Shown here in pieces: positions 316 through 63,700 of a DNA stretch of 64,000 nt. This DNA is from Mobula birostris (Eukaryota). The notes beneath the pieces were generated by a model that was given only the letters and a program-made list of their open reading frames with translations, was not told the origin of the DNA and ran no database searches. The position numbers and the translations under genes were made by a program. The first letter of the stretch is position 1. Every line of letters starts with the position of its first letter. The DNA is taken from assembly GCF_030028105.1 (NCBI RefSeq), contig NC_092396.1, positions 3,286,001 through 3,350,000 of the forward strand, written 5' to 3'.

Positions 316-1287
316 CAACATTTACAGAAACTCAACTAACAGATAACCAGTTAAGCACTGAGATTTCAAAGTTAAACCTCCCACAAATGTAAAGATCTGC
401 AACAATTTTACACAGTCAAGATTGATAGAACTAGCCCCAAGAGATGGGGAGAGCCTGTGCACCATATCCTTGAATTTAATTCCAACTATACTTCAAAAAG
501 AACCACAGAAAGAATTTTGGGATTCAAGATCTTAAAAAGGCATTGTCTACATTTCTTAACATCCCACACTCAATGGATTTACTTAAGGCATTGATTCCAA
601 AATTTAACATTTTAATGAATTCTGCCTTATGCATATGGTGGGTAAAAATACAAAAACTGAATACATTGAAATGGAGCTGTTTAAACATTTTTATAGGGAC
701 AAAATAAAGCAAATAGCTACTACATTAATGTTGTGCTAAAAACTTATATTTTGTAGCACCATCTGGGTGGTAAAGCATTGCTTCCCAGCTCTCCCAGGAC
801 TATTTAAAATCAGCAGTAAGCAATGAGGTTTAAACCTACAATCCAGTTTCTTCATTGCAAGTTCTAAACAATTCAAAAGAGGAAAGCAGCAAGGAAACTT
901 AGAGCCTTAGGAGCAATAGACAAGACCATTAGTGGAACAATTAGAATTGTGCAGTCCTGCAGACTGGAGGAATTACAAAAATCAAAAACACTAGAATATT
1001 TAAAAAACGCTACTTTGCAAGGTAAACAATGATAGATGAATTGAATGTTATAAGAAGATGGCAGGCGAAACCAGCTGCTGTCTTAAATACATCCTGAGAT
1101 TAGATACAGGTAAGTTGAAGAACATAACACAAACATTTCAATTGTGTAAAATTTTCATTTAAACTTGATGCCTCAGAATATATTCCATATCCACCAGTGA
1201 GATTTCTTGGTGCCCAAGATTTGCCAAGTTTCCAAAAGCAGTCACAGGACTTGTAGCATGCATGCATTTCTTAGAATATACACTCAC

Positions 1288-1321
1288 CTGATGTACAAAC
1301 ACATCTTCCTTTGTATCATTC
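1288..1321 (-). CDS. YBX1: YBX1 exon 3 (RNDTKEDVFVHQ, RNP2); gene continues beyond the left edge
   Basis: 34-nt exon with tgtag acceptor and GTGAGT donor; in frame with exon 2. Confidence 0.97.
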
Positions 1322-1538
1322 CTACAAGGGAAAAAGAATTATACTTCACATTTGTGATCATGGATATTCAAAAATAATTTCTCCCCATCCCACAGAAAAA
1401 GATTTACCATCCACAATTTAACTCATAGGAAAACACCTTTGGAGAGAAACATACAATATAATTTTAGTTTAAACAGGATTTTACGTAGCAGTCCCCAGGA
1501 ATGAAAATAGTACAAGATTACAAATACCACATACTCAC

Positions 1539-1602
1539 CTGTTGATGAATCCATATCCATTTCGTACGTTGAACCACTTTACTGTTCCAAGAACCTTTGT
1601 TG
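1539..1602 (-). CDS. YBX1: YBX1 exon 2 ([21 protein letters not shown], cold-shock domain RNP1)
   Basis: 64-nt exon with tttcag acceptor and GTGAGT donor; translation is the invariant cold-shock domain start. Confidence 0.97.
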
Positions 1603-4600
1603 CTGAAAGAAAAGCACAGGCCCCAATGAGTCTCAATATTACTATGCAAACTTAATTTCTAATGGGCAGACTTCTGATCACTTTCAGGAAACAATGGTGG
1701 AGGGAAAAAAACAAAGCAGTTTCATAAAGTCCTAAATTTAGTGCAAAATGGAGAGATCTCTGCTCTAATACATCTAAAAAGTACTTTACAGAATAACTGG
1801 TTAGTGGCTAACCTGAACCTCAATATATTGCTAACAATAAAACTAATTGATCAAAAAATATAGGCATAGTAAAGTTATTTTAGGTGCAGTGTTTAGACAG
1901 TAGATGGTATCTGGACCTTCAGATCTCAGAGGTGCAACAGCCAAGATGAGATGCCACTTTGTGTTTTTCTTTTCACTTTAGCCGATTAACAGGATCCAGA
2001 TCAGCCATGAAAATAATCTAGACACTTAACAGTAACCCAAAGCAGGAGGAAATGGCATTTAACCAAACTGAAGTAATGAGAGTTGAGGAAAATCATTTCA
2101 CAATATAGCAATGAAGTACCTTGAATAATCCATCCCAGAAACAAACCCAATTAACCAGCCCATCATCACCAGTAGCAGCATTTTCACCCACCTTTCTTTC
2201 AAATCATTTTTACAAGTCCTTAAGCCAGCCAATGTATAAGCTCTGGCTCATTGGATACTAAGTTATAAAGGACACCAGTGGATCAAAAGTTTATATAATG
2301 GCTAACTTCTTTAAGGAGAGACAATGAAACTAAAAGTTAAAATAAGGCAAAGGTGGAGAAATAATTAAATTAGGGGATGCAGCAGAGGGCAGAATTGGCG
2401 GATAACATATTACCAAGGCTGACAGTGTAGATGATTACAAAGGAGCTGAAGATTAAGGGAGAAACCTAGAGGGATTTAAGGTATAAATCTGGGCAGCAGA
2501 GATAGAACTGTCGCCACATAGCTCCCATGAGCTCAGCACACTGACCTTCTGTGCTGTTTCTTGCAAAATGCCAAAACAAGGAGGTTAACGGGCCACTGTA
2601 AATTATCCCTAGTATCTGGAAAACCATATCCAAAGGGAATAGCATAAATGGATGACCTTCAGGGCCATTTAAAATCAAGGTGTTGCTTAATCAACCAGAG
2701 GTTTTGAGGATTAGCAAACAATGTGGGAAACTGATGTATAAAATGGACACTGAACAGTGTATTGGACAAGGTCAAGTTTATGGCGCACATGGATGGCTGA
2801 CAAACATTGGGATTATCAAGAGGTTAACACAAAGGGACATATTAGCCAAGCTGTGGCAAACTCACACATGACAAGTACAGACAAATTGGTTTAGAGACCA
2901 AAAAGGCAAGGATGAAATGCATTTTCAAACAGCCTAGTGAAGTTTCAGACAGTTGAAGAATGAAAGGAGGCAAAAATAGCTAGGTGGCCACTGCTTTGAT
3001 AGGATTTGAGCCACAGTAGCAGGAAAATGGTACTCAACTCAAATGCATACATGAGGTAAGATGGGAGAAAATTTGAGACCAGAGTTGAAAGCAGATAAAA
3101 CATCAAGTTTCAGCATGACAAGTTAGGTTTAAAAATGGAAGGGGAGTAGAGGGGAAGAGAGATGATTTCCTGTGACAATGAATTCAGAAGTTATTATACC
3201 TGAAATAAAAGAAAATGAAAATTGTGGTAGGGACAATCACCTAAGCTTATCCTCACAATGCAGAATGATGAAATAGCATGCAGTATTGATAGTCAAGGAA
3301 CCTCTCTCAACTCCCCCGTCTCCACATCCCACAAATGCAAAGGTCCAACAGCAAAGCAAACTAGACTTAAAAATAACATTAAGGATGTCATGATGAAAGA
3401 TGGTATCAACAGAAAAAAAAAAGTGAATGGAATGGCTGTTGAATGTGGCAAGTTAGCCTAAATGAGAAGTTTCTTCCAATATCTTTAGCTGAATTCCTTC
3501 TGATCACTTTAATGAGCAATTACAACTTCCTTATACGCAAACAATAGAAACGTTCCACGACATCAACTTTAATTATGATGTCACCCAATATCATTACTGA
3601 TACTAGCTCCTTGTAGAACTGCTCACGGCACTTTACAACTATGTTAAAATGAGATTACAATAACTTGAATCACTGAGCACAAGAACAGAGTGGCCAGAGG
3701 GCTGGGCTGAGATGATACTGATGGACTCAAAGTCAAAACCCAAAACTAATACTATAGTAAGATTGAAGGAAACATTAAGACGCTGCTCTCCAGCACGTTT
3801 CCTGGAGAGCACTCTCACATAACGACACCCTCTGCGCAATAAACGGGTTCTACTTTCCGCCACCAACAACTTTGTTGGGGAAAACTGAGAGCAGAGAGCC
3901 GCAGTCCCAGATCAGGGACACTTCCTACAGCCTCGGCGGGATAAAAACAGGATCTTCCTAACCCACCACCCCCACCTTTCACTCTGAAGCCTCACTGACA
4001 AGCACAGATTCACGGCACCGGGGACATTCCCTCTTCCACAACCCCCACCCAGAGGCAAGGAAAAGACGAGACCCTGGGCTCGGCTCGGCTCTGAATTTTC
4101 ACTCACCCTGGGGAGGGGAGAGGAGACGAGGCCTACTCTCGGGCCCGGACAGGGGTTCCGGGTTCCGCGGGAGGACAATCGGGCGGCGGTTGAGGACGGA
4201 CGGAGGGGGGGGAACGGGCGAGCGGCGGCCACGCGGAGGAAGCGCGCGTCCCCACGGGCTCCACCAATCAAGGGCCGGCTCCAACCGCCCCCTCCCTCCT
4301 CCTGCCGCCCACACGGTGGGAGAAGCGGCGCCGGGGCCCGAGGCCGCAGCACGTGGCGGCCGCCGTCAGCTGAAGCGAGGGGCGAGGCTGCCGAGGCCTC
4401 CACTGCTCTCCTCCCCCCCGGTCAATTCTGACCCCAACCCCGGGAGGGGTGGGGGAATCTCCCCCGTCGGAGAGGGGGGGTCGGGGTCGCTTGCCCCCCC
4501 TCACCGCGCGCCGCCGCCCGTTGACATTTGAATGAGGCGCTCGCGCGCGTGGCCGTTTAACTGGGCACATCGGGATCGCGCCTCCTCGACCACCCACCCC

Positions 4601-4718
4601 TCTAATCGGGGCCGCGCAAAGACCCCCCCGGCGGGAACGCGCCTCGTCTCCGCGAGCGCCCGTTTGAACCGCAACGGCCGTTCCTTCTCTTCCCCCCCCC
4701 CCCAAACCAACTCCTCAC

Positions 4719-4809
4719 CGATGACTTTCTTCTCCCCGGGGGATTTGGGTTTGTCTGGCTGTTGCTGCTGCTGCTGTTCGGGTTGCTGCTCCGTCTCGGC
4801 CTCGCTCAT
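4719..4809 (-). CDS. YBX1: Y-box binding protein 1, coding exon 1 (MSEAETEQQPEQQQQQQPDKPKSPGEKKVI)
   Basis: ACC-ATG at 4809; MSEAET...KKVI matches the YBX family N-terminus; G|GTGAGG donor, phase 1; lies in a CpG island. YBX1 rather than YBX2/3 is inferred from adjacency to PPIH, as in human. Confidence 0.92.
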
Positions 4810-4909
4810 GGTGTTGACAGGCTGCGTGAGGTGGTTGCGGCTCGGGCCGGTCTGAGGTGGGGGCTCCTGCGCTCTCTCCGCTTCTTTCTTCTCTCTTTCC
4901 CTCCGCTGA

Positions 4910-5240
4910 AAGAACATGGCTGGCCTCTCGCGAGAATTTCAATTAAATACCGCGCCGGCACCCGCCCCCAAACCCAACGCCCATTGGCTTGCTTCGCACC
5001 CGGCGACACGCTAGTTGGTTAACACTGCTATCTGTCAATCTGCTTCGCGCCCAACATTCCACCCGTAGCGGACATGATTGGGGGGGATCCACTCCACATT
5101 CCGTCGCTCATTGGAGAGGGCCAACGTCAATTATCTCCGGCTGTAGGAATCCGGCACTCCTCCCCACTGCTTATTGGTCCGTTGCGATTGTCACCTAGGT
5201 AGAGTGCCGGAGGCTAGCAGGTGAGCACCTGTCAATCACT
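4910..5240 (-). promoter_or_regulatory. YBX1 core/proximal promoter
   Basis: TCTCGCGAGA palindrome 4926-4935; GC box ~4961-4968; CCAAT (ATTGG on +) at 4983, 5077, 5110, 5173; TGATTGACAG (minus) at 5229-5238; E-boxes CAGGTG/CACCTG ~5218-5231. Confidence 0.75.
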
Positions 5241-5439
5241 GCCCGGGCACACGTCCACAACTTAACAAACAAAAACTATTCTCTATTAGAAAAGTCTAAG
5301 GATTGCAAATTGTTGGAAAACCTCGAGTCTTCAACCAGTAAAATAAAAGTTCGATTATACAGATGTGCATCATTAAAGAACTCCTATTAACCAAGATACA
5401 CCCTCTCCAATCTTCAGACACACACTCCGGAACAGATTC

Positions 5440-5990
5440 TAAAGTTCAAATGAAATTTATTATCAAAGTACAGATACTGTATGTCACCATATACAACACT
5501 GAGATTCATTTTCTCGCGGGCATATTCAATAAGTCTATCGAATATGAACATAATCAATGAAAGACCGCACAACTTAGTGTTTAACAACCTGAACAAATAC
5601 AAAAGTAAATAAATAAATAAGCAATAAACATCGAGAACATGATGTTGAAGAGTCCTTGAAAGTGAGCCCATAGGTTGTGGGAACATTTCAATGACGGAGC
5701 GAGTGAAGTTAACCCCTTCGATTCAAGAACCTGATGTTTGAGGGGTAATAACTGTTTATGAGTTTAGCGGTGTGAGCCTGAGGCTCCTGTACCTTCTTAC
5801 TGATGGCAGCCGCGAGAAGAGAGCGTGTCCTGGGTGGTGGAATCCCTGATGATGGATGCTGCTTTCCTTCAATAACAATTCATGTAGATGTTCTCAATGG
5901 TGGGGAGGGCTTTACCTGTGATGGACTGGGCCATATCCATTCCTTCTTGGTGGGATTTTCCATTCAAGGGCATTGATGTTTCCATAATTA
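5440..5990 (-). mobile_element. Rex1/Babar-type LINE 3' fragment
   Basis: Decayed GKALP..I..IY..KAASII..HPGHALFS coding remnant plus ATAATAAATTT-ACTTTGAACTT tail. Confidence 0.7.
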
Positions 5991-15000: not shown

Positions 15001-15050
15001 TCAGTGTTGAGGCGAGTGAGGTTATCCCCTCCAGTTCAAGAGCCTGATGC

Positions 15051-15467
15051 TTGAGGGGTAATAACTGTTCCTGAACCTGGTGGTGTGGGTCCTGAGGTTC
15101 CCGTACCTCCTACCTGATGGTTGAGGAGTAATAACTGTTCCTGAACCTGGTGGTGTGGGCCCTGAGGCACCCGTACCTCCTGCCTGATGTTTGAGGGGTA
15201 ATAACTGTTCCTGAACCTGGTGGTGTGGGCCCTGAGGCACCCGTACCTCCTGCCTGATGTTTGAGGGGTAATAACTGTTCCTGAACCTGGTGGTGTGGGC
15301 CCTGAGGCACCCGTGCCTCCTGCCTGATGTTTGAGGGGTAATAACTGTTCCTGAACCTGGTGGTGTGGGTCCTGAGGCACTCGTACCTCCTGCCTGATGG
15401 TTGAGGGGTGATAACTGTTCCTGAACCTGGTGGTGTGGGCCCTGAGGCACCCGTACCTCCTGCCTGA
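15051..15467. repeat. 70-bp minisatellite, 6 copies, inside a Rex/Babar element (14730-15610, minus)
   Basis: Units start at 15051, 15121, 15191, 15261, 15331, 15401. Confidence 0.95.
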
Positions 15468-16784
15468 CAATGGCAGCAGTGAGAAGAGAGCATGGCCTGG
15501 GTGATGGAGATCCTTGATGATGGATGCTGTGCTCCTGTGACAATGCTTTATATAGATGTCTTCAATGGTGGGGAGGGCTTTACCCATGATGGATTGGGCC
15601 TAATCCAATGCTTTAGTAAAAATAGTGATGGAGGTGGGCACATGAGCAACATATAAAAAAGCCATTTTGATAAGTACATAGATCGGAGAGGTTTAGAGGG
15701 CTATGGGCCAAACATGGACAAATGGGACTGGGTCACTGGGCAACACAATCAACCTGGATGAAGGGCCTATTTCACTGCTGTATGACTCTGGCTCTCAGCA
15801 AAGCCAAGAGCAATGCTAACAAAAACATAAACTTGACTCAGCTATGGGGCCAGGATCCAACTTTCCTTCCTGGAAGAGAAGATTCCCTAAGGGTTGATAA
15901 TTAGCATGTGACACACAGCCAATGTACGGTTCAGAACCACTCAGTTTGGAAATGGGACGGGGTCACATTTAGGAAGTAAGTATTAAGACATACATATGTT
16001 AGTGATAATAAAGCTGATTCAATTCTCAATTCCACATTTCAGCCCGAGCCCCATAAACCTATTTCCCCAAACTATATCTTGGATGAGTCCCCCAAGGTTG
16101 CTGGCATGGGAAGATGGAGAACTTGGGATAAAAATCGGAAAGTTACTCATCTAAAACTATAATTGACTTTGTATTCAGCAGGAGATCTGTACTTAATATC
16201 ATCCACCACACTCACTCGACTTTTCTCAAAGAAGGAAGCAGGTTGAAGTACATCCCCTGCTCACTTCTTCCTCTCCTTCTGTGCCGCTGTTATCAGACTA
16301 TGGATAACCAGTTGGGCTCTTGACCTCACAATCTACCTCATTATGATCTTGCATTTCACTGTCTGCCTGCGCTGCACTTTCTCTGAACTGAACACTTTAT
16401 TCCGCATTCTTACACACAAGAGACTCTGCAGACGCTGGAAATCCAGAGCAACACACACAAAATGCTGCAGGAACTTGGCAGGTCAGGCCCATCACCTGGT
16501 CCCGCCTATGATCAGTCACCCTCCTGACTCATTCCTCCCTCATACCTCTTTATACCGGTTATTTCTCCTCTACATTTTGCATAATTACTATAGTTTCTGG
16601 GCAGCCCGGAGTGTAACCGTTCAATTACCGGCACTGCCTATAAGGAGTCTGTACTTTCTCCCCATGACCACGTGAGTTTCCTCCCACATTCCGCAGACGT
16701 GTGTCAGTAGATCAACTGGTCACGTGGATGTCATTGGGTCATGTGAGTCCATTAGGCCTGTTGCCACGTTTTATCTCTAAATAA

Positions 16785-17285
16785 TCTACAGATGTACGGT
16801 GGAGAGCGTCCTGGCTGGTTGCATCCCCGTCTGGTGTGCAGGGGCCAAGGCACAGGATCGAAAAGACCGCAGAGGGTTGAATACTCATCCAGATCCTTAT
16901 GAGCACTGGCCTTTCCAGCATCAAGGACTTTTTCAAGAAGCAGCGTCTCAAGAAGGCAGCATCCGTCATGAAGCTCCCTCAATATCACATGTCCTCTTCT
17001 CCCAGGAGGAGTTACAGCTCATTGTTACTACCAGGAGGAGTTACAGGAGACAGGAGCCTAAAGGTACACTCAATGTTTCTGAAACAGCTTCTTCCCCTCT
17101 GCTATCGAATTTCTGGATGGACAATGAATCAGCCCATAAACATCTGCTTCTTATTGCTTTTTGTACTCTTTATTTATCTTTTACAATAGATAGTAACTTT
17201 ATATCATTGCAGTGCACAGTTGCCACAAAAAGACACAATTTATGTCATATAATATAATCTAGTGGTAATAAACTGGATGCTGACG
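16785..17285 (+). mobile_element. Rex1/Babar LINE 3' fragment
   Basis: YRCTVESVLAGCIPVW remnant and tail. Confidence 0.75.
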
Positions 17286-17319
17286 TCCTCAGAATCACAA
17301 CGTCAACCATCCTCTACCT

Positions 17320-17399
17320 CAGGGGTTCCCAACCTTTTGTATGCTCTAGAGCCTTACCACTAACCAAGGGGTATGTAGACCACAGGCTGAGAACCCCTG
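17320..17399. mobile_element. ~80-bp hAT-like MITE
   Basis: Terminal inverted repeats CAGGGGTTCCCAACC / GGCTGAGAACCCCTG; relatives at ~32430-32474, 38503-38579 and 51725-51789. Confidence 0.65.
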
Positions 17400-17948
17400 T
17401 TACCTTATCAGACACCGAGAACCCCTGGTACCTTATCAGACCCTGGGAATCCCTGTTACCTTATCAGACACCGAGAACCCCTGTTACCTTATCAGACACC
17501 GGGAACCCCTGGTACCTTATCAGACACCGGCAACCCCAGTACCTTATCAGACACCGGCAACCCCTGTTACCTTATCAGACACCGGGAACCCCTGGTACCT
17601 TATCAGACACCGGGAATCCCTGTTACCTTATCAGACACCGGGAACTCCTGTTACCTTATCAGACACCGGGAACCCCTGTTACCTTATCAGACACCGGGAA
17701 CCCCTGTAACCTTATCAGACACCGGGAACCCCTGTTACCTTATCAGACACCGGGAACCCCTGTAACCTTATCAGACACCGGGAACCCCTGTTACCTTATC
17801 AGACACCAGGAATCCCTGTTACCTTATCAGACACCAGGAACCCCTGTAACCTTAACAGACACCTGGAACCCCTGGTACCCTATCAGACACTGGGAACCTC
17901 TGTTACCTTATCAGACACCGGGAACCCCTGTTACCTTATCAGACACTG
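17389..17948. repeat. 28-bp minisatellite, ~20 copies (GGGAACCCCTGTTACCTTATCAGACACC)
   Basis: Direct tandem array, period 28. Confidence 0.95.
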
Positions 17949-19434
17949 TTTGACTCAATCAGCCTCTCCAGCAGTTTGTTTTTTTCTTGTTTCTGATTCC
18001 TGTGTCTGCTGTACGGAGTCTCGAGAGTGATCACCATCACTCATCACTGTTCTAAAGGGATGTCCTTCTATTCTGAGACTGTGCCCTCTGATCCTAGACT
18101 CACCCACTATTGGAAACATCCTCTCTATGTCCTCTCTTCCTGCTGCTAACATCGGGAAGAAGGTACAGGAGCCTCAGGTCCCACCTCAGCAGGTTCAGGA
18201 GCAGTTATTACCCCTCAGCCATCAGGCTCTGAACCAGTGTGGATAACTTCACACTCAAAAATGATTTCACAACCTATTGACTACAGTATTATTTATCCAA
18301 CTATCTTCTTATGTATTAATTTATTTATTATTACTTGATTCTTTTTGTATTTGTGCAATATGTCAGTCTCTGTGTGTAGTTTCTCATTGATTCTAGTGTC
18401 TTCCTTTGTTCTACTGTGAATGCCTGCAAGAAAATGAATCTCAGGGTAGTATTTGGTGACATAAACGTTCTTTGTTAATGAACTCACTTTGAACTCTCTA
18501 TCTAGGCCTTTCAGTATTTACAGTCATGAGTTTTAGTTAGATCCCTCCTTACTGTTCGAAACTCCAGCAAGTACAGGCCCAGAGCCATCAAGTGCTCCTC
18601 CAGCCCAAAGGAACTGGTAAACTAAACACCACTCAGCCTCAGGTGAAGAAACATTGGAAGTAATTTTATTCACTATAAAGGAAGTTGGGAAAGCGAAACA
18701 AACCAACTGTTATTACAGCATTCAACTTCACTTCTGAACTCATGCCAAGATGGGTTCCTGATTATTCTACATTCACACCAACCTTGATAGCTGCTTGTTA
18801 ACGCAGATATCTGATCTGCCAACCACATGGCAGACATGGTCAAGAGGGTCAGTTGTTGTTCAAACCAGACATCAGAATGGGGAAGAAATGTGATCTCACT
18901 GACTTTGACTGTGGAATGATTGTTGGTGCCAGACAGGGTGGTTTGAGTATCTCAGAAACTGATGAACTCCTGGGATTTTCATTCACACAGTTTCTAGAGA
19001 GCTTACAGAGAATGGTGCAAAAAATGACAAAAAAAAATCCAGTGAGCAGCAGGTCTGCTGGTGAAAATGCCTTGTTAATGAGAGAGGTCAGAGGAGAATG
19101 GTCAGACTGGTTCACAGACAGGAAGGTGACAGTAACTAATTACAACCGTGCAGAAGATCATCTCTGGATGCACAACATGTTGAACCTTTCAGTGGATGGG
19201 CTACAACAGCAGAGGAGATGAACAAACACTCAGTATCAGCTTCATTTGGTACAGGAGGTATCTAATATATTGCTCATTAGTGTATGGCACGACCACTTTC
19301 TTCATATAAATTCAAAACTCCTTACTGCCCCTGAGGTATGTTTCCTCAATGTAAGAATTATCAGATATTGAAATACAAACTTTAGTCAGCTTTCAGCAAA
19401 GTATTCTGTCAACTACAACTTACACAGCACAGCA

Positions 19435-27185: not shown

Positions 27186-29794
27186 GGTGAGGGCAGAAAA
27201 TTACTTTGTTCTCCTTTACACTTGTGTACTGGAAGTTACATTAAACAATCTTGTATCTTCAATTGATGGTACAGTGTGCACATTGAGAATTACAACTCCT
27301 GTGTGGCTACCACTGGATCACACAAACTGCACTATCCAACAGACTGTCTCCAAACATGACAAACAACAGTCTCCAAGTAAAACGAATGACGTAGAAATGT
27401 AATATATTGGACATTATGCTAGCATGGAGCATGAGCACTGAAAAGAAAACAATTTTTCCTAGGGTCTCAATGGCAATTTTCAATATTAAAACAAGTGAAA
27501 CATTTAGCAAAATAAGTTGGTTTATTATTGTCATGTGTACTGAAGAAGTGAAAAACTTGCACAGATAACTTCATCAAAGTTCGAAGTAAATTTATTATCA
27601 GAGTACATAGCATGTCGCCATATACAACCCTGAGATTCATTTTTCTGCGGCATACACAGTAAATACAAGGAACACAGTAGAATCAATAAACGATCTCACC
27701 CAACAGGACAGGCAGACAACCAATGTGTGAAAAACCAACTGTGTAAATATATAAATAAATAAGTATCCAGAACATGTGATGAAGAGTCCTTGAAAGTGAG
27801 TCCATAGGTTGTGGAATCAGTTCAGTGCTGTGGTGTGTGAAGTTACCTCCTCTGGTTCAAGAGCCTGATGGTTGAGGGGTAATAACTGTGCCTGAACCTT
27901 GAACCAGGATGGATATTTAGTGCTTAAAATGAAACAAATTTACCAGGTGGGGTCTCAACAATATTTTTCAATAGTACCTTAAATGAAAAAGTTGGTCTAT
28001 TATTAAATGTACTATCTCTGCATACTATCTACACAGATAATTTCATCACCTTGGTGATCTGAGGTAACAAAATAACAGAATGCAGGAAGGATAAAGTGTA
28101 ACAGCTACAGAGAAAGAGCAGTGCAGGCAGACAATAAGGTGCAAGGTTATAATGACATAGATTGTGAGGTCCAACATCCATCTTACTGAACTAGGTGTAA
28201 CAAAAATTATTTTAAAATTCATTCTGTGCTCTTTCCTGATTCAGCAATAAGCATTCGCTTATTCAGTCTCAAAGGAGGCACTGTACACAGGTTAAATCAC
28301 AAGAAATCACTTTGCTAGTTATATAAAACGTGCAGGGTAGTATATGATCACATGTATTGCAGAAGTGAAAAACTTGCTCAGCATCCATTCAGATAATTTC
28401 ATCAAAATTCAAAGTAAATTTATTATCAAAGTACTCATCATATACAACCCCGAGATTCATACTTTATGCACATATATGTACTTTGATAATAAATTTAATT
28501 TAAACTTAGAAAAGGGAAACAAATGGTTATTGAAGTAAGTACAAAAAACACACTGAACTTACCAAAGGAGCCGAGGTGCAGCACGCCGACAAACTTCCAT
28601 GCAGCCTTCTCTCTCCCAATGTACTCACAACCCCCCCCCACGACATACTTGCCCTTATCTTCTCAACTCTACCACTAAGAGAAGATTCTCCCCTTCTCTT
28701 TCTCTCACCCTCCTCTTGCACCGAGGAATTGTCCCGTTTTTATACCCTTCCAAACCCCTTACACTAGAACTTTCCCATGAAATTCTCTTCCATTTGGTGT
28801 CTGTACCCACACAATGATCCCACCTTACGAAGAAAACAATGACTTTCTCCATTACCCACTGTCACTGTTAGCCGGAATGGTATCCTCAACTGCAGAAGGT
28901 TCCTCCCCTTCTGTCATGAATAATAAGGACTCATGCAAACTAGAACATTCCGAAACCTGTTTTTCTCTTTAATTAACAAAGCATGAAGCAATGTTGCAGC
29001 TCTGTAAAAATTGGAATATTGTGTTCAGTTCTGGTTGCCTGGTTTTGAGGAGGATGTGGAAACTTTCGAGAGGGTTCAGAGATTTACTAGCCAAAATGTC
29101 AACTGTTTATTCCCCATCCATAGATGCTGTCCTGCTGAATTCCCCCAGCATTGTGTGCATCTGTTTCTCTGGTTTTCCAGCATATGCAGTATCTCATGTT
29201 TATGTTTTACTCAGATGCTGCTTGGATTGGAGAACTTGTCTTTATGAGGGTAGGTTGATCCAGTTAGGGGTTTTCTCTTTGGAGAGATGGATGAGAGGGG
29301 ACTTGTTGGAGATGTATAGGATACATAGATCGAGTGGATAGCCAACAATAATGCTCCAAACCGTATGTCTTTGGAATGTGGGAGGAAACTGGAACACCTG
29401 GCGGAAAGCCATGGTCACAGAGAGAGATTACAAACTCCTTATGGAATGGCAGGAATTGAACCGGAACCGCTATGCTACCATGCTATAACCAAATGGTAAC
29501 CAGAAAGGCAAATGGAAACAGCTGGGGGGGGGGGGGAGAGGGAGGAGTGAATACAGAAAGTTAGTGAAATTGATCTTCATGCCATCAGGTTGGAGGGTAT
29601 GAACACGAGATGTTGCTCCTACAACCTGAGTTTGGACTCGATGTGCTTACCAGCACATTTGAACACACTGCAACCCTGTAATTTTGGAGCAAATCCCTTC
29701 TTGCTGCCATTGTCTGAACTTCAATCAGAATCCAGCCACTATGATGTTTTTGCAATAAATATCACAGATAAAATTCAGTGTTTCGGTGCTTGTC

Positions 29795-37443: not shown

Positions 37444-37536
37444 CATTGACAACAGACCGGGACTAGTGTGTTTTATCTTGAAGTTTTCATCAGCAAACGG
37501 TCCTCTGTATATGCTACATACACCAGTCCCATCTCC
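37444..37536 (-). CDS. PPIH: PPIH exon 6 ([31 protein letters not shown])
   Basis: 93 nt, cacag acceptor, GTAAGA donor; visible inside ORF 37375..37686. Confidence 0.97.
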
Positions 37537-40500
37537 CTGTGGGCAAGACGATGCCAGCATTACTATGATGTGTAGACAGAAAAATAAAGGATCAGCAAAC
37601 ACAAAGGAGGAAACGTATGTTTCAGTAAAAATTATATTTGTTCTTTCAACTTTACTTGTTCCACCGACCAAACAACTCACTTTCAAGGATGCTTCATCGC
37701 ACGTTCACGATATTTATTGCTTATTCATTATCATTTAATTATTTTTGCATTTACAGTTTGTTGTTTTTTTGCACATTGGTTGTTTGTCTGTAATGCTGGG
37801 TGAGGTCTTTCATTGATTCTATTGTGTTTCTTGGATTTACTGAGTCTGCCCGCAAGAAAACGAATCTCAAGGTTGTATATGGTGACATATGGGTACTTTG
37901 ATAATAAATTTACTTTTGGGCTTTTCCAACTGTTTTCAGTCCTTCAGTTTGCCATCTTTGGAGTTTTCTAACAGAGAGTAGCTTTTGTTTGGAAGTTGTG
38001 GACGTGTGCGTGGGGAGCGATTGACAGGTGCTCACCTGCTGGCAGGCGGCACTCTACCTAGGTGACAGTTGCCATAGACCAATCAGCAGGGAGAGGAGTG
38101 CCGAACTCCTACAATAGCCCTGCAGCCATTGATAATAAAACTACTTTGTCCTGTAACCAAAAATTAAATCCTAGGGATTTTAGTGGAATAGAAGGCCATG
38201 TTTCAGAAGTGCCTTAACAAATGAGTTGCATTTTTCTAACTGTGCGCATGTAATCACACTGGACTTTCAGGTATTTATTATTTGTCCATATAACAGATTT
38301 CTGCATGATGTCTAACAACAGAAATAATTATGGTAAATTTGGACACAATAAATAAAGCCACATCTGGCTAATAAACCATTTACTAACGATAATGAGATTG
38401 AAAGAGCACAGAGAAAATTTACAAGGATGTTGCTGGGACTTGAGGACTGGAATTATAGGGAAAGGTTGAATAGGCTATTACTTTATTCCCCAGAGCACAG
38501 AATAGGTGCTTCAATCTCTTTTATGCCATGGACCCCTACCATTAACTGAGATCTGTGGACCTCAGATTGGGAAACTCTGGCATGAGGGCATAGAAGAATG
38601 AGGGGAGATTTGGTAAAGGTATACCAAATTAGGTATGGAATAGATGGGGTAAGCACAAGCAGGCTTTTTTCCCCCAATGAAGCTGCCTGAGACTAGTACT
38701 AGAGATCATAGGCTGAGGGTGAAAGGTGACATGTTTAAAGGGGACATGAGAGGAAACTTCTTCACTCAGAGGGCAGTAAAAGTGTAAAACAAACTTCTAC
38801 TGTAAGTGGTGGATGTGGGCGTGATTTCAACATACAAGAGAAATTTCCGTAAGTACATGGATTGGAGGGGTATGGAGGGCTATGGTCCAGGTGCAAGTTG
38901 ATGGGACAAGGTAAAATAATAGTTTGGCAGGGACTAGATGGGCCAAATGGCCTGTTTTTGTGCATGCAGTGTTCCATACTCTATGATAAAGAATACCCTA
39001 AACTAGGCACAAGATTATATGCTTATACATTTTAGACATTCAAAGTCAAGTTTATTGTCACATGCACAAGCATATGTACAGGTATGCACAGGTGCAATGA
39101 AAAATTACAACACAGGCACATAGCTTCAGATAAGCAGCATTCATAAGAAAAAACTAATTAAATTTTTACGAGAACTGAATTAGAACAAGAAAAACAAAGC
39201 ACAGACACGAGGAATTCTGCAGATGCTGGAAATTCAAGCAACACACATCAAAGTTGCTGGTGAACGCAGCAGGCCAGGCAGCATCTCTAGGAAGAGGTAC
39301 AGTCGACGTTTCGGGCCAACACAAAGGCTAATTTAGTGCAAAGTGATTAGTAATTATCTTTGCAATTACTGTGTAATCAGAGAAGAAACAAACTTACCAA
39401 TTCTGTAACAGAATAATCTACCAGAGATGGGTGCTGGGACCTGCACTGTTAGTTGTATACATTAACAACTTGGATGTCTATGTAGGAAGCATGATGAGCA
39501 AATGTGCAGACGACACAAAATTAGTAGTGGGTTTGTTATAGAGAAGGGCAAACTTAAGTCACAGAATTATATTGATCAGCTGGAAAGCAGGGCAGATGAA
39601 TGGAAGATGTAATTTAATCGTGTTAAGTGTGAGGTGATACATTTTGGATGAAAATATAGGCAGGATATATACTGTGAATGATTGGTCCTTAGGGAATGTT
39701 GAAGTTCAAAGAGATACTGGTATAAAAGTCCTAAGGTGCCTGAAGTTGGCAGCACAGGCAGATGGTTCAGGATTCAGACACTCACTGACCACAACTCTGA
39801 AGTGATTCTATGACCTGTCTCACTTCAGCCCAGTATGATTGCACATACAGTTAGAAAATTCTGACTCACATTCAACTCATGTTCTTAGTTGTTATTTCTT
39901 CATTTGCACGGTTTGTCTTCTTTTGCACCTTGATTATTTGTCAGCCTTTGTCTGTTTATGTATAGTTTTTTTCATAAATTCTATTATACAATAATTTTTT
40001 ATTTTTCCTGTAAATGCCTTCAAAATAAGGTAACTTTAATAATACATTTACTTTGAACTTCAGCAACCTCTGGTAGGCTAATCAGAAACTGGGTTGAGTT
40101 TAGAGACCTAATACTGCCTTAGAAAGCTGCAGTTTACAGTCGTGAGTCGTTTACAGCCAGAGACAGAGTGTTGAAGAGGATGAGAAATTGAAATGATAAT
40201 ATTGCTTAGATGGGACAGAATGTTGGTTAGCAAAAACATGGATGAAGAGAAGATGGGACTTGATACACCCTGCAAACATTTTTGTGAAAGCATTGTATCT
40301 GAAACGTAACCCTTGTTTGAACCTTAATGCGCTAAAAGGAGATTGCGGCTGACATCCTAGGGAAGTCCACAGCAAGGACATGTCCTTAATGCACTTTGTT
40401 AGGGCACTGCTGCTACAGATTTGTAATCAGGCTAGCTTCAAGCCACCGTTCACCTCAAATCTTTTGAGGAGAACAGCCTTTCATACTTGCTTCCCTTCAT

Positions 40501-42764: not shown

Positions 42765-42807
42765 GTTTACAAAGTCCCCTCCTTGTATCATAAAATCCTT
42801 GATGACT
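42765..42807 (-). CDS. PPIH: PPIH exon 5 (VIKDFMIQGGDFVN)
   Basis: 43 nt, tttcag acceptor, GTGAGT donor; FMIQGGDF cyclophilin signature. Confidence 0.97.
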
Positions 42808-43546
42808 CTGAAAGAATTGAACGGAGCACAGTTTAATGGCACTGCAGAAACATGACTTGTTAGAAACACAAACAACAGGAAATCTGCAGATGCTGCGTTC
42901 ACCAGCAACTTTTATGTGTGTTGTTAGAAACACTCCTGTTCTGTTACATGTCCTATTAGAAACACTCATAAATGTAGTCAAAATTCTAATGAGCATGACG
43001 CAAAATTAAAAGATTGTTAAACTACTAGAATTACTCAGCCAGTGAGTTGGTATCTGTCCTCAGAATGTTTCATGTGGAATTACTGGAGAACAGGATTTAA
43101 AACTGAACAGAACAAAGGTAGCGTAAATTCAAATTTAAATTTATTTATCACACGTACGTCATAACATAGGTTTGCATTAACAACCAACACAACCAAAGAA
43201 TGTGCTGTCTAGCCCCTTGAACATTCGAAAGGTTTCAATGAGATCCCCTCATCCTTCTAAATTTCAGCAAGTATAGGCCCAGAGCCAAATTTGTGAACAT
43301 CCTCTGAATCTTCTCCAATGCCAGCGCATCTTTTCTTAGATAATGAACCCAAATACTGAAGGTGAGGCCTCACCAGTGCCTTATAAAGCCTCAGCATCAC
43401 ATCCCTGCTCTTGTATTCTGGACCTCACCACTGACTCAACCTGCAAGTTAACCTTTAAGGTGTTCTGCACAAGGACTCCTAAGTTCCTTTGCATCACAGA
43501 TTTTAGACTTTCATCCCATTTAGAAAATAGTCTGCACATTTATTTC

Positions 43547-59799: not shown

Positions 59800-60180
59800 C
59801 GGCTCCAGGTCTCATTCCCAAAACCCCAATATGCCTGACCCCAGCCCCGGCCTGTTCCGCCCTCATCCCCTGACCCCAGCCCCGGGACCGGACTGCTCCT
59901 GATTTTAATGCCGCACCGGGTCCCTTGGTGCCCCGTCGCCCCGCTCCTCGGCCTCAGGCCCCCTCACCTGGCCGCCGATGGTGATATCAAAGAAAACCAC
60001 CGGGTTGCTAGGGTTGCTCGGAGGCGCCGCCATCGCCGCCACAGGAGGAAAAGGGGCGGGACTGGGCGGCGGGTGACCTCACTCGGCTTCCGCTCCACTC
60101 ACCTGATTGACAGCGGAAGACCCCGCCCCCGCGGGCTGGTTCGGGCGCTCCCTCACTCTGACCCTATATCCGGCCGGGCT
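59800..60180 (-). promoter_or_regulatory. PPIH CpG-island promoter
   Basis: GC boxes ~60053 and 60121; ETS-like CGGAAG ~60087 and ~60114; TGATTGACAG 60104-60113. Confidence 0.75.
59968..60033 (-). CDS. PPIH: Peptidyl-prolyl isomerase H (cyclophilin H), exon 1 (MAAPPSNPSNPVVFFDITIGGQ)
   Basis: GCG-ATG-G start; NPVVFFD cyclophilin motif; CAG|GTGAGG donor; CpG island. Confidence 0.96.
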
Positions 60181-60492
60181 CTCCCTCACTCCAACCTGTA
60201 CCAGGCTGGTCCCGACACTCCCTCACCCATACCCGGCTGCTCTAGGGGCTCCCTCACCCCGACGCCATACCGGGCTGATCCCGACTCCCTCACTTCCTAC
60301 ACCCCTCCAGGATCGGTAAAACCTCACTTACCCCGCCCAACCTGATCCCGGCGCTCCCTCACGCCGATCCCCACTGAGCTGATGGTACTCTCTCACTCCC
60401 ACCCACCACAGGCTAATCTAGACGCTCCCTCACTGTGCCGGTCCCGAAAATCCCTCATTCCTACCCAGGGGCTGATCTGGATGCTCTCTCAC

Positions 60493-60714
60493 ACCAACAC
60501 CCACTGTGTTGGTCCTGGAGCTCCCTCATGCCAACACCCACTGTGCTGGTCCTGGAGCTCCCTCACGCCAACACCCACTGTGCTGGTCCTGGAGCTCCCT
60601 CACGCCAACACCCACTGTGCTGGTCCTGGAGCTCCCTCACGCCAACACCCACTGTGCTGGTCCTGGAGCTCCCTCATGCCAACACCCACTGTGCTGGTCC
60701 TGGAGCTCCCTCAC
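60493..60714. repeat. 37-bp minisatellite, 6 copies (GCCAACACCCACTGTGCTGGTCCTGGAGCTCCCTCAC)
   Basis: Units start at 60493, 60530, 60567, 60604, 60641, 60678; degenerate relatives extend over 60145-60490. Confidence 0.95.
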
Positions 60715-63700
60715 AGGCTGATCTAAATGCTTCCTCATTCCAACTCCATTGCTCCTCCCAAACACGCCATCACCATCCCTATCAACATTGAGGTCGAAAG
60801 CAGGTCTCCAGCATCATGAGGTGGAGGGTCTCATTCTGAACCATGAGCCATCGTCTAGATCATTTACAAAACCAGAATATAGAAGCAATTCACAAACACG
60901 GTGTGAGTGATTATTATGAGCTGGCAATAATGCAAATTATAAGTTCCTGGCATATCAGGCATGACCTTACTAAATAATAGAATAGCTTTGAGAGACTTCC
61001 TGCTCCCATTGGAAGGAATTGGCCTGTTAGTTTTTTATTGTGACATACCGAGGTTCAGTGAATTGCTTGGTTTTCCATACTCTCCAAACAGGATTACACT
61101 GGGGTTCCTTCGATTGACATGTGCCGTGTCATCCAATATGGACGACCGTGGTGTTTCCATGACCATGATTACTTTTGGCAAACATTTCTACAGAAGTGGT
61201 TTGCCATTGCCTTCTGGGCAGTGTCTTTACAAGACAGGTGACCCCAGCCAATATCAATACTCTTCAGAGATTGTCTGCCTGGTGTCGGTGGTCACATAGC
61301 CAGGACTTGTGATATGCACCAGCTGCTCATATGACCATCCACTGCCTGCCCCCATGGCTTCACACGACCCTGATCGGGGGGGGGGCAGTGTTATGCAGGG
61401 GCTACACCTTGCCCTAAGATGACCTGCGCTAGCAGAGGGGAGGAGTGTCTTACACCTCCTTTGATAGAGACACATCTCCACCCTGCCACCCATATTGAGG
61501 CAGTCAAATAGAAAAGCAATAATGGAAAACAATGTTTTATAAGTTTGTCAGAGAGCTGTGTGTCTTTCTCAAGAGGCAAGGAAAAAGAGTCATTCAGTCA
61601 GTGGCCGTATTATTAGATAAACCTGCTCATTAATGTAAATATCTAATCAGCTAATCATGTGGCAGCAACTCGATGCATAAAAGCATGCCGACATGGTCAA
61701 GAGGTTCAGTTGTTGTTCAGACCAAACATCTGAATTGGGAATAAATGTGATCTAAGTGACTTTGATCATGGAATGATTGTTGGTGCCAGACAGGGTGACT
61801 TCAGTACTTTAGAAACTGCTGACCTACTGAAATTTTCATTATAAACTGTTTCTGGAGTTTACAGAGAATGGTGTGAAAAACAAAAAAAAATTCCCGTGTT
61901 CCCTCAAGCTGCTCCCCTCCATGACATTAACTCCGCACTGAAGCTGGAGCCACGAGCCTGCTCCAGACTCTGAGTCAACGGGCTCCGCGATGTTTACTCT
62001 GCTATGGGCTGAGGTGATAGGCCTTCCCCTGGCTTCATGTCTGAAGACTCACTGTTGTTCTAAATACTATTCACTTTATATTTGTATTGTTTCATGTAGC
62101 ACCATGGTCCTGAAAAACTTCGTCTCGTTTTTACTGTGTACTGTACCAGCAGTTATAGTTGAAATGATAATAAAAAGTGACTTGACTTGACTTATTTATT
62201 GTTTGTATGATTTGTTTTATTTCTCTCTCTTTCTCTCTGCACAGTGGGCGTCTTTCAGTTTCTATGGGTTCTTTTGAGGTAATTGTTTTGCGGCTGCCTG
62301 TAAGGAGATGAATCTCAAGGTTGTATAGTGTATGCATACTTTGATAATAAATGTACTTTGAACTCCACGTAGCTACCCAAATGCTTCTTAATTGTTCCCA
62401 ACTGCATCGGCCTCAATCACTTCCTCTGGTAGTTCGTTCCATATATTCACCACCTTTTGCATAAATAATTTGCCCGTCAGGTCCTTTTAACTCTATCCAC
62501 TCTCACTGTAAACCTACGCTTGATAGCTTTGGAGAACCCTACCCTGGGGAAAAGACTGTTACCGTCCACCTTGCCTCTCATCATTTTAACCACTTCTGTA
62601 AAGTTGTTTCTTATTCTTATTCATTCGAAGGAATAAAGACCAAGCTTGGTCAACTTCTCCCTAAAACTCAGGCCCTCTTGCCCTGGCAACATCCTTGAAA
62701 ATCTCCGCACTCTTTCCAGTTTTTTCCTATAACTGGGTGACAAAAGTGTACATGAAACTCCAGGCACGGCCTCATCAATACCTTGTCCAGCTGCAATACT
62801 GTTAGTGTGACGCTGTAACACCTCGGGGCATTGGACTTTGGAGTTCAAATCCAATGCTTTTTGTAAGAAAGTCCTTCCCACGAGGGCCTGGCGTTTGTCC
62901 AGTTCCCCCCCTCCCTACATTCCAAAGACATACCACTTGGTAGTTTAATCGGTCGTTGCAAACTGTCCTGTGATGAGGCTGCGGTTAAATAGGTGGTTTG
63001 CTGGGTGATGCAGCTCGCTGGGCCGGGAAGGGCCTGTTCTGCGCTGTATCTCAATAAAATAAATATATAAATATTTGTCCTAGCCACCATGACCCATGTT
63101 CTCTACATTTTAAAGCCTCTTCTGCAGGAAATAGGCAGTAGATATTTCAGGTCGAGACCCTTCATCTGAACTGGAAAAGGGGACAGAGCTAGCTTAACAA
63201 GGTATGCAAGTGTGGTTTGGGGTTTGGAAATGAGCGGAACAATGTCTAGTGGGTGATAAGTGAATGCCAGGTGAATAATAGGCACGTGAGGGAGGGAAGA
63301 AAGAGAATTAAAATCTCCATTTTCCTATCTGTATCAGATTTGGCCATTTCTGTTGTTAACCATTCATTTGTGACATTGCTGAATGTTTTGGAATCAAAAA
63401 GCACTACAACATTGAGTCAGGCATTTTGGTCCATCTACTCCATGCTGGCCTGGTTTTCTGCGTAGTCCCAGCTAGTCTACCTGCAGTGGGACCATAGCCC
63501 TCCACACCTCTCCCATCTATGTACAGTACCTTCTCAAACTTCTCTTAAAAGTTACAACTGAACCCACATCCACCACTTCAATGCAGAGTCTCTCCTGATG
63601 AGGTTCACTCTTTCAACTGGTTTGTTTAATAATTTAGTCTCTAATTACCGTCAGAATGTGGACGGTATTTTATATTTATATTTTATGGTGTAATTACTTA

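What the first reader, a model, noticed from the sequence alone, without database searches (positions are those of the whole stretch)
37922..38113. Inverted copy of the YBX1 upstream promoter module inside PPIH intron 5
Seen: the reverse complement of 37922-38113 aligns closely with 5142-5320. Identical blocks include TGTCACCTAGGTAGAGTGCCG, AGCAGGTGAGCACCTGTCAATC and GCACACGTCCACAACTT. The CCAAT box, paired E-boxes, PBX/MEIS-type site and several CpGs are retained, and the segment resembles none of the TE families in this window. It lies ~33 kb from the original and ~390 bp from PPIH exon 6. Inference: a duplicated cis-regulatory module acting as a YBX1/PPIH enhancer or antisense promoter, a scar of a local inversion, or an unknown low-copy element co-opted into the YBX1 promoter.
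Basis: seen in the sequence. Interest (0 to 1): 0.7.

Follow-up and report, generated by a model that had tools for sequence, protein, structure and literature searches.

The report
Promoter fragment copied into neighbouring intron
A roughly 250-base piece of DNA upstream of the YBX1 gene has one inverted copy 33 kb away in an intron of the neighbouring PPIH gene, likely pasted there by DNA-break repair; the copy still carries transcription-factor motifs but shows no significant sign of selection, so it is probably a harmless relic.

Summary
Window 37945-38113 is an inverted copy of 5142-5312 (83.6% over 171 bp, E 7e-46). It has exactly two copies in the 4.0-Gb genome, while four control pairs each gave 421-4188 candidates, so it is not a repeat family. 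All nine PPIH coding exons lie on one strand on both sides of the copy, so it is not a simple inversion scar. Contigs of four other organisms hold the copy; two of them show the duplicated piece was longer (about 245 bp or more) and has since been trimmed by deletions. Function is not shown. The identical blocks are no longer than chance (P 0.08-0.34). The copy differs from its orthologues by 4.0% against 6.1-6.5% in flanking intron (P 0.14-0.18). In this lineage the first base of its Pbx/Prep DECA site has mutated. RNA-like contigs give no separate transcript. Best reading: a local duplication, likely repair-mediated, of the distal YBX1 promoter, evolving near neutrally (0.58). A weak TALE/NF-Y enhancer remains possible (0.27), because the motif core is less diverged than the adjacent arm. 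A known kind of event.

The parts
37916..38127 (-). Copy B: inverted duplicate of the distal YBX1 promoter in PPIH intron 5 (strand given so that it reads like A on +)
   Evidence: 37945-38113; 37916-38113 held by organisms C and E, 8 differences, no gaps; table 4 (11 letters that C/E have at A 5143-5145 extend the match to about 38127; read by eye)
5139..5373 (+). Copy A: inferred donor, distal part of the YBX1 promoter, about 235-470 bp upstream of the transcript 5' end
   Evidence: (B contigs of C and E fit 5167-5263 and again 5338 to about 5373); 5' end near 4896-4906
38018..38027 (+). Pbx/Prep DECA-type site in B: 9/10 here, perfect in organisms C, D, E (T at 38018)
   Evidence: table 3; motif defined in PMC6023610
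5229..5238 (-). Perfect DECA site in A
38025..38038 (.). Paired E-boxes CAGGTG-N2-CACCTG in B, identical to A 5218-5231
   Evidence: E-box label recalled
38079..38083 (+). CCAAT box in B, 51 bp from the DECA site (A: 5173-5177, same spacing)
37676..37915 (+). 3' tail of a high-copy LINE-like repeat; abuts B in this genome only because about 190 nt are missing here; not part of the duplicated piece
   Evidence: 77% to the tail beside A, 81% to an unrelated copy at 27576; C/E contigs carry 193-197 other letters left of 37916; 'LINE' label is inference
38114..38174 (.). 61 bp replaced by about 5 letters in organisms C and E (deletion at the other edge of B)
   Evidence: table 8, records 6 and 22
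37444..37536 (-). PPIH exon 6 (residues 82-112)
42765..42809 (-). PPIH exon 5
4714..4906 (-). YBX1 exon 1 (ATG at 4810) with CpG island 4001-5000
   Evidence: Y-box protein by Pfam CSD and PDB YB-1 hits of a retrocopy; YBX1 rather than YBX2 rests on slightly better scores and recalled PPIH-YBX1 synteny

Best explanation
The 38-kb segment is a single inverted copy of the distal YBX1 promoter, likely pasted into PPIH intron 5 by template-directed repair of a DNA break and probably drifting near neutrally since. Shown: two copies only, inverted, 33 kb apart; at least about 245 bp originally; present in all five organisms laid or sampled; trimmed later by independent deletions. Inferred: (1) direction A to B; (2) the mechanism, in which a broken end in intron 5 invades the nearby promoter DNA, copies about 250 bp and rejoins (SDSA-type capture); (3) an age of roughly one to three times the depth of the split between this lineage and organisms C/E; (4) little or no selected function, though the copied CCAAT and DECA sites could still bind factors.
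For: Two copies: 2 candidates; extra hits near the control rate, none extends beyond 20-23 nt; nhmmer over 464 kb, next best E 2.2. Controls: 4 of the 6 other locally two-copy pairs were tested and all 4 are families. No inversion. Size and type fit repair-mediated duplications (PMC2671141). Direction: A's CCAAT is the fourth of four same-strand CCAAT boxes in the promoter; the core is 57% GC against 33-39% in intron 5; one pre-split CpG transition lies in B. Near neutrality: B 8/198 against flanks 32/521 and 33/508, P 0.18 and 0.14; block test P 0.08-0.34; changes that can lie on the B lineage avoid motifs only at P 0.56 (1 of 4) or 0.11 (1 of 9); 4 changes in the 97-bp core of B arose on this lineage, one in the DECA site.
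Against: B has no indel and fewer substitutions than its flanks or than A (11/171 plus 4 indels), and far fewer than the proximal promoter (22/156, P 0.0009). Differences older than the split are 5/97 in the motif core against 7-11/50 in the AT-rich arm (Fisher P 0.004-0.11; change-point P 0.08-0.42). Only 1 of all 14 core differences hits a motif (P 0.014, but biased because motifs were defined on present-day A). The test lacks power: half the neutral rate is not excluded. The donor is 33 kb away, beyond the 5-kb class that Pace et al. call confident RDs. No empty site was seen, so breakpoints are untested.
Confidence: 0.58

Rival explanations
1. Same origin, but B has been kept by weak purifying selection as a TALE/NF-Y-type enhancer for YBX1 or PPIH, perhaps now relaxing in this lineage.
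For: CCAAT + DECA + paired E-boxes retained. TALE/NF-Y co-occupied elements act as enhancers in zebrafish (bioRxiv 720102, passages). 4.0% divergence and no indel; deletions in two lineages stop at either edge. In C/E the two cores differ at only about 6 of 97 sites. Core less diverged than arm.
Against: No test is significant once the boundary choice is allowed for. DECA base 1 has changed in this lineage and organism B. CCAAT-DECA spacing is 51 bp against about 20 bp on average in zebrafish. The 9:1 excess of core changes on this lineage weakens to P 0.15-0.18 if unlisted rows or a faster lineage are allowed.
Confidence: 0.27
2. Reverse direction: an intronic element of PPIH was copied to the edge of the YBX1 promoter and gave it a new TALE/NF-Y module.
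For: B is at least as conserved as A between species. More listed substitutions fall on A than on B. No outgroup lacks either copy.
Against: GC content and CCAAT orientation fit the promoter, not the intron. A second DECA-like site with the same orientation lies at 5032-5041.
Confidence: 0.06
3. RNA-templated copy: a divergent upstream transcript of the YBX1 promoter, or a 3' transduction from the LINE-like repeat beside A, was retroposed into intron 5.
For: YBX1 mRNA has at least 32 dispersed exon-1 copies, 3 of 3 checked are processed. Both copies have a same-family tail in the same relative orientation.
Against: The two tails are not each other's closest copies. In C/E about 160 further letters that fit neither A 5374-5440 nor the tail separate B from it. 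Retroposition does not favour a site 33 kb away. No poly(A) seen at the surviving end.
Confidence: 0.05
4. Remnant of a low-copy transposon (MITE or solo LTR) that hopped locally, or a scar of two nested inversions.
For: A 9-bp inverted repeat links B 38103-38111 with A 5378-5386.
Against: No third copy, where controls at 70-94% identity give hundreds to thousands. The 9-mer lies about 16 bp inside the left end of homology and just beyond the right end. Exons are collinear.
Confidence: 0.03
5. B holds a 22-nt cryptic or poison micro-exon of PPIH (AG at 38060-38059, GT at 38036-38035 on the sense strand).
For: The two longest identical blocks span an AG/G and a CAG/GTGAG on the PPIH strand (splice consensus recalled).
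Against: The same letters are kept in A, outside any YBX1 transcript. Single RNA-like contigs run unbroken through both sites (X12 37839-38424; X9 about 37833-38114).
Confidence: 0.01

Closest known systems
Repair-mediated duplication (RD) by capture of proximal DNA, Pace et al. 2009, PMC2671141 (read: parts 1-3 of 8 and passages)
   Same: Two-copy, same chromosome, about 250 bp (their range: up to 619 bp proximal, median 204 bp distant), acceptor in an intron, carries predicted factor sites (21 such cases there), inverted orientation occurs (ACSBG2 case), divergence near neutral.
   Different: Donor is 33 kb away, in their >5-kb tail (58 of 1,136 on the same chromosome), which they do not class confidently as RD. 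Breakpoint hallmarks could not be read here. Not inserted inside a recognised transposon.
TALE (Pbx/Prep DECA) plus NF-Y elements, Ladam et al. 2018 PMC6023610 and bioRxiv 10.1101/720102 (passages)
   Same: DECA motif with a nearby CCAAT box, in A near a start site.
   Different: Spacing 51 bp against about 20 bp on average; B's DECA is 9/10 here; no occupancy or activity data.
Formation of regulatory modules by local sequence duplication, PMC3188502; promoter/enhancer repurposing, PMC6172195 (search listing and start of abstract only)
   Same: Regulatory sequence arising by local copying; promoter-type sequence that might serve as an enhancer.
   Different: By their abstracts these concern neighbouring single sites, or a change of role of one element; here a whole multi-site piece moved 33 kb, and function is not shown.

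Membership tests
Repair-mediated duplication (Pace 2009) | Insert of 50 bp or more found at only one other place in the genome | tested here: met
   positive controls 34-36, 46
Repair-mediated duplication (Pace 2009) | Donor within 5 kb (their cut-off for confident calls) | tested here: not met
   32.6 kb; cut-off read
Repair-mediated duplication (Pace 2009) | Not tandem, not a transposon, not a processed retrogene | tested here: met
   retrocopies stop at 4896, short of A
Repair-mediated duplication (Pace 2009) | Microhomology, filler or small deletion at junctions; no poly(A) or target-site duplication; empty site in an outgroup | not testable with these tools
   All organisms laid hold B; both ends are eroded by later deletions
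Interspersed repeat / MITE / solo LTR | Dispersed copies | tested here: not met
   2 candidates in 4.0 Gb
Interspersed repeat / MITE / solo LTR | Terminal inverted repeats at the ends plus target-site duplication | tested here: inconclusive
   9-bp inverted repeat, not at the ends of homology
Inversion-breakpoint duplication | Sequence between the copies is flipped against its flanks | tested here: not met
   9 of 9 PPIH coding exons on the minus strand, in order
TALE/NF-Y enhancer | DECA motif with nearby CCAAT | tested here: inconclusive
   Both present; DECA 9/10 here, 10/10 in C, D, E; spacing 51 bp
TALE/NF-Y enhancer | Purifying selection on the motifs | tested here: inconclusive
   P 0.08-0.56 in the less biased tests
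TALE/NF-Y enhancer | Factor occupancy, H3K27ac, reporter activity | not testable with these tools
   no chromatin or bench data
Known structured RNA (Rfam) | Match at gathering score | tested here: not met
   3 matches, E 0.36-3.5, all far below threshold; none

The most novel reading that the evidence does not exclude
A single repair event copied a ready-made Pbx/Prep + NF-Y + paired E-box module from the YBX1 promoter into the next gene's intron, where it became a working shadow enhancer, conserved in organisms C/E (cores about 94% alike) and now decaying in this lineage: birth and loss of an enhancer caught in one small clade.
Probability: 0.2. Interest if true: 0.55.

Novelty: new member of a known kind. 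Interest (0 to 1): 0.25.

Why it matters
If neutral, it is one more local duplication, useful only as a natural pair for measuring how promoter DNA decays outside a promoter. If functional, it would be a clean, dated example of an enhancer born by copying a whole promoter module, with the donor next door as a control and a lineage-specific hit in the key site: a direct test of how fast new regulatory elements can arise.

Tried and rejected
CpG decay as proof of direction: three CpGs of A looked decayed in B, but outgroup contigs show two of them (5185-86, 5244-45) are gains in this lineage's A; only 5180 remains. One search took 5180 as an own-lineage change and 5181 as older; one search shows the reverse. 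Neither is a motif position, so the counts stand.

Shared LINE-like tail as part of the duplication: rejected. Extension of homology within this genome alone: not significant on either side (P 0.19 and 0.05). Older internal repeat of the CCAAT-DECA unit in the promoter: spacer similarity P 0.34. Rfam: nothing.

Expression: no RNA holder is on record as RNA. RNA-like runs X9 and X12 have contigs over B at word depth 7-8 (exon 6: 101 in X12) and none from A; contigs cannot separate this from unspliced pre-mRNA, and absent cover is no evidence. The joint table was crowded by repeats (784 rows not shown). Earlier findings: none near. Two of six control pairs were not searched genome-wide. Lay tables were cut (44 and 12 rows not shown), so up to 4 differences in B and 2 in A are unplaced.

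Full report
Observation. The reverse complement of 37945-38113 (copy B) aligns with 5142-5312 (copy A) at 83.6% over 171 columns, E 7e-46: 16 transitions, 11 transversions, 2 gaps, K2P 0.18. The outer 23 bases of the stated interval align only loosely.

Setting. PPIH runs on the minus strand from 60033 to 30666. All nine coding exons were placed with fetched homologues; exon 6 matches human PPIH residues 82-111. B lies in intron 5. The gene beside A encodes a Y-box protein (retrocopy: Pfam CSD E 5e-9, best PDB hits YB-1); calling it YBX1 also leans on recalled synteny. Its 5' end lies near 4896-4906, marked by retrocopies and an RNA-like contig. A is therefore about 235-470 bp upstream, at the edge of the CpG island. 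The organism is a vertebrate with a 4.0-Gb genome; I did not identify it.

Copy number. Two DNA searches of the genome gave 2 candidates each. Two patterns with 2 mismatches gave 6 hits (control 7) and 3 hits (control 0); the five extra loci match only over 20-23 nt. nhmmer over 464 kb around the locus found nothing else below E 2.2. As controls, a self-comparison of those 464 kb gave 7 locally two-copy pairs. Of the 6 others I searched 4, and each gave 421-4188 candidates. So the search sees old families well, and this pair is not one.

Not an inversion scar. Exons 6-9 lie between the copies and exons 1-5 outside, all on one strand and in order. Only two nested inversions could hide this.

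History from relatives. Runs of five coded organisms hold the stretch. B is present in organisms B, C, D and E. In C and E the B contigs carry 193-197 letters left of 37916 that this genome lacks; 36 of them fit A 5338 to about 5373. C and E also have 11 more letters in A at 5143-5145, which by eye extend the match to B 38127, while their B lacks most of 38114-38174. The duplicated piece was thus about 245 bp or more and has been trimmed at opposite ends in the two lineages. The repeat tail that touches B here is a neighbour by deletion: it is 77% like the tail beside A and 81% like an unrelated copy. Of the 29 present differences, 10 arose on this lineage after the split from C/E: 6 in A and 4 in B. 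That dates the copy to roughly one to three times the depth of that split (inference; the core gives the younger and the arm the older figure).

Selection. Within the pair, the blocks are not longer than shuffles give (P 0.34 longest, 0.08 top three, 0.24 with adjacent changes merged). Between species B differs at 8 of 198 sites (4.0%) with no indel, against 32 of 521 and 33 of 508 in flanking intron: P 0.18 and 0.14; no indel P 0.18. This fits neutrality and also half the neutral rate; a third of it is borderline (P 0.05). A itself differs at 11 or more of 171 sites plus 4 indels, the proximal promoter at 22 of 156, and 4867-4952 at none listed. Pointing to constraint: older differences are 5 of 97 in the motif core against 7-11 of 50 in the AT-rich arm (Fisher P 0.004-0.11; P 0.08-0.42 after allowing for the chosen boundary), and in C/E the cores differ at about 6 of 97 sites. 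Pointing away: 4 changes hit B's core on this lineage, one turning the perfect DECA site into a 9/10 match, and motif avoidance among changes that can lie on B is not significant (P 0.11-0.56).

Direction. Inferred A to B. A's CCAAT is one of four same-strand boxes in the promoter, the core is 57% GC against 33-39% in intron 5, and one older CpG transition lies in B. My first CpG argument failed against the outgroups. No organism lacks either copy, so direction is not shown.

Mechanism. The best fit is capture of nearby DNA during break repair. Pace et al. (PMC2671141; parts 1-3 of 8 and passages read; supplements not looked at) describe 824 such human duplications, 21 with predicted factor sites in both copies, with divergence as if neutral, and found them in zebrafish and chicken. 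This case meets their two-copy and size criteria, fails their 5-kb cut-off, and its junctions cannot be read. It works like an RD; membership is not established. Retroposition is disfavoured: no poly(A) at the surviving end, no continuity with the repeat beside A, and no reason for a site 33 kb away.

Possible function. DECA plus CCAAT marks TALE/NF-Y elements that act as enhancers in zebrafish (PMC6023610 and bioRxiv 720102, passages only), though at about 20 bp average spacing against 51 bp here. E-box control of the human YB-1 promoter is mentioned in a review (PMC8997642, passage). B could therefore bind factors, but nothing here shows that it does.

In print. A search for YBX1 + PPIH + promoter + duplication found 0 papers; two searches listed nothing on this locus. 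The library lacks most subscription papers.

Verdict. A real, genome-unique, old inverted duplication of the distal YBX1 promoter; likely a repair-mediated relic (0.58), possibly a weak enhancer (0.27). New member of a known kind; interest 0.25.

Noticed in passing
window 4785-4900; L055, L056, L057: YBX1 exon 1 has at least 32 dispersed copies at 89-98% identity; 3 of 3 checked are processed pseudogenes with joined exons, and most end at 4896.
   Followed up: yes
window 4790-4855, runs X11 and X16: In the genome-sized runs of organisms C and E the YBX1 start-codon region has summed depth 26,000-278,000 against 8-12 for single copy, with joints that go back about 52 bases: possibly a tandem satellite derived from YBX1 exon 1. 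Depth is no copy number.
   Followed up: no
window 60100-60113: The PPIH promoter has its own perfect DECA site overlapping a CACCTG box, about 70 bp upstream of the ATG; no wider similarity to A or B. Two perfect sites in 64 kb against 0.14 expected.
   Followed up: partly
window 4953-5108: The proximal YBX1 promoter diverges faster than intron (22/156, 14%) between this genome and organism C, and its DECA-like site at 5032-5041 is changed there, while the CCAAT cores show no listed substitution.
   Followed up: partly
window 38103-38111 and 5378-5386: 9-bp inverted repeat near the two ends of the duplicated piece; unexplained, perhaps chance or a template-switch site.
   Followed up: partly
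window 15036-15614, 17258-17953, 60346-60791: Tandem arrays: about 70-bp repeats within a LINE-like fragment, and two minisatellites seen as repetitive frames.
   Followed up: no
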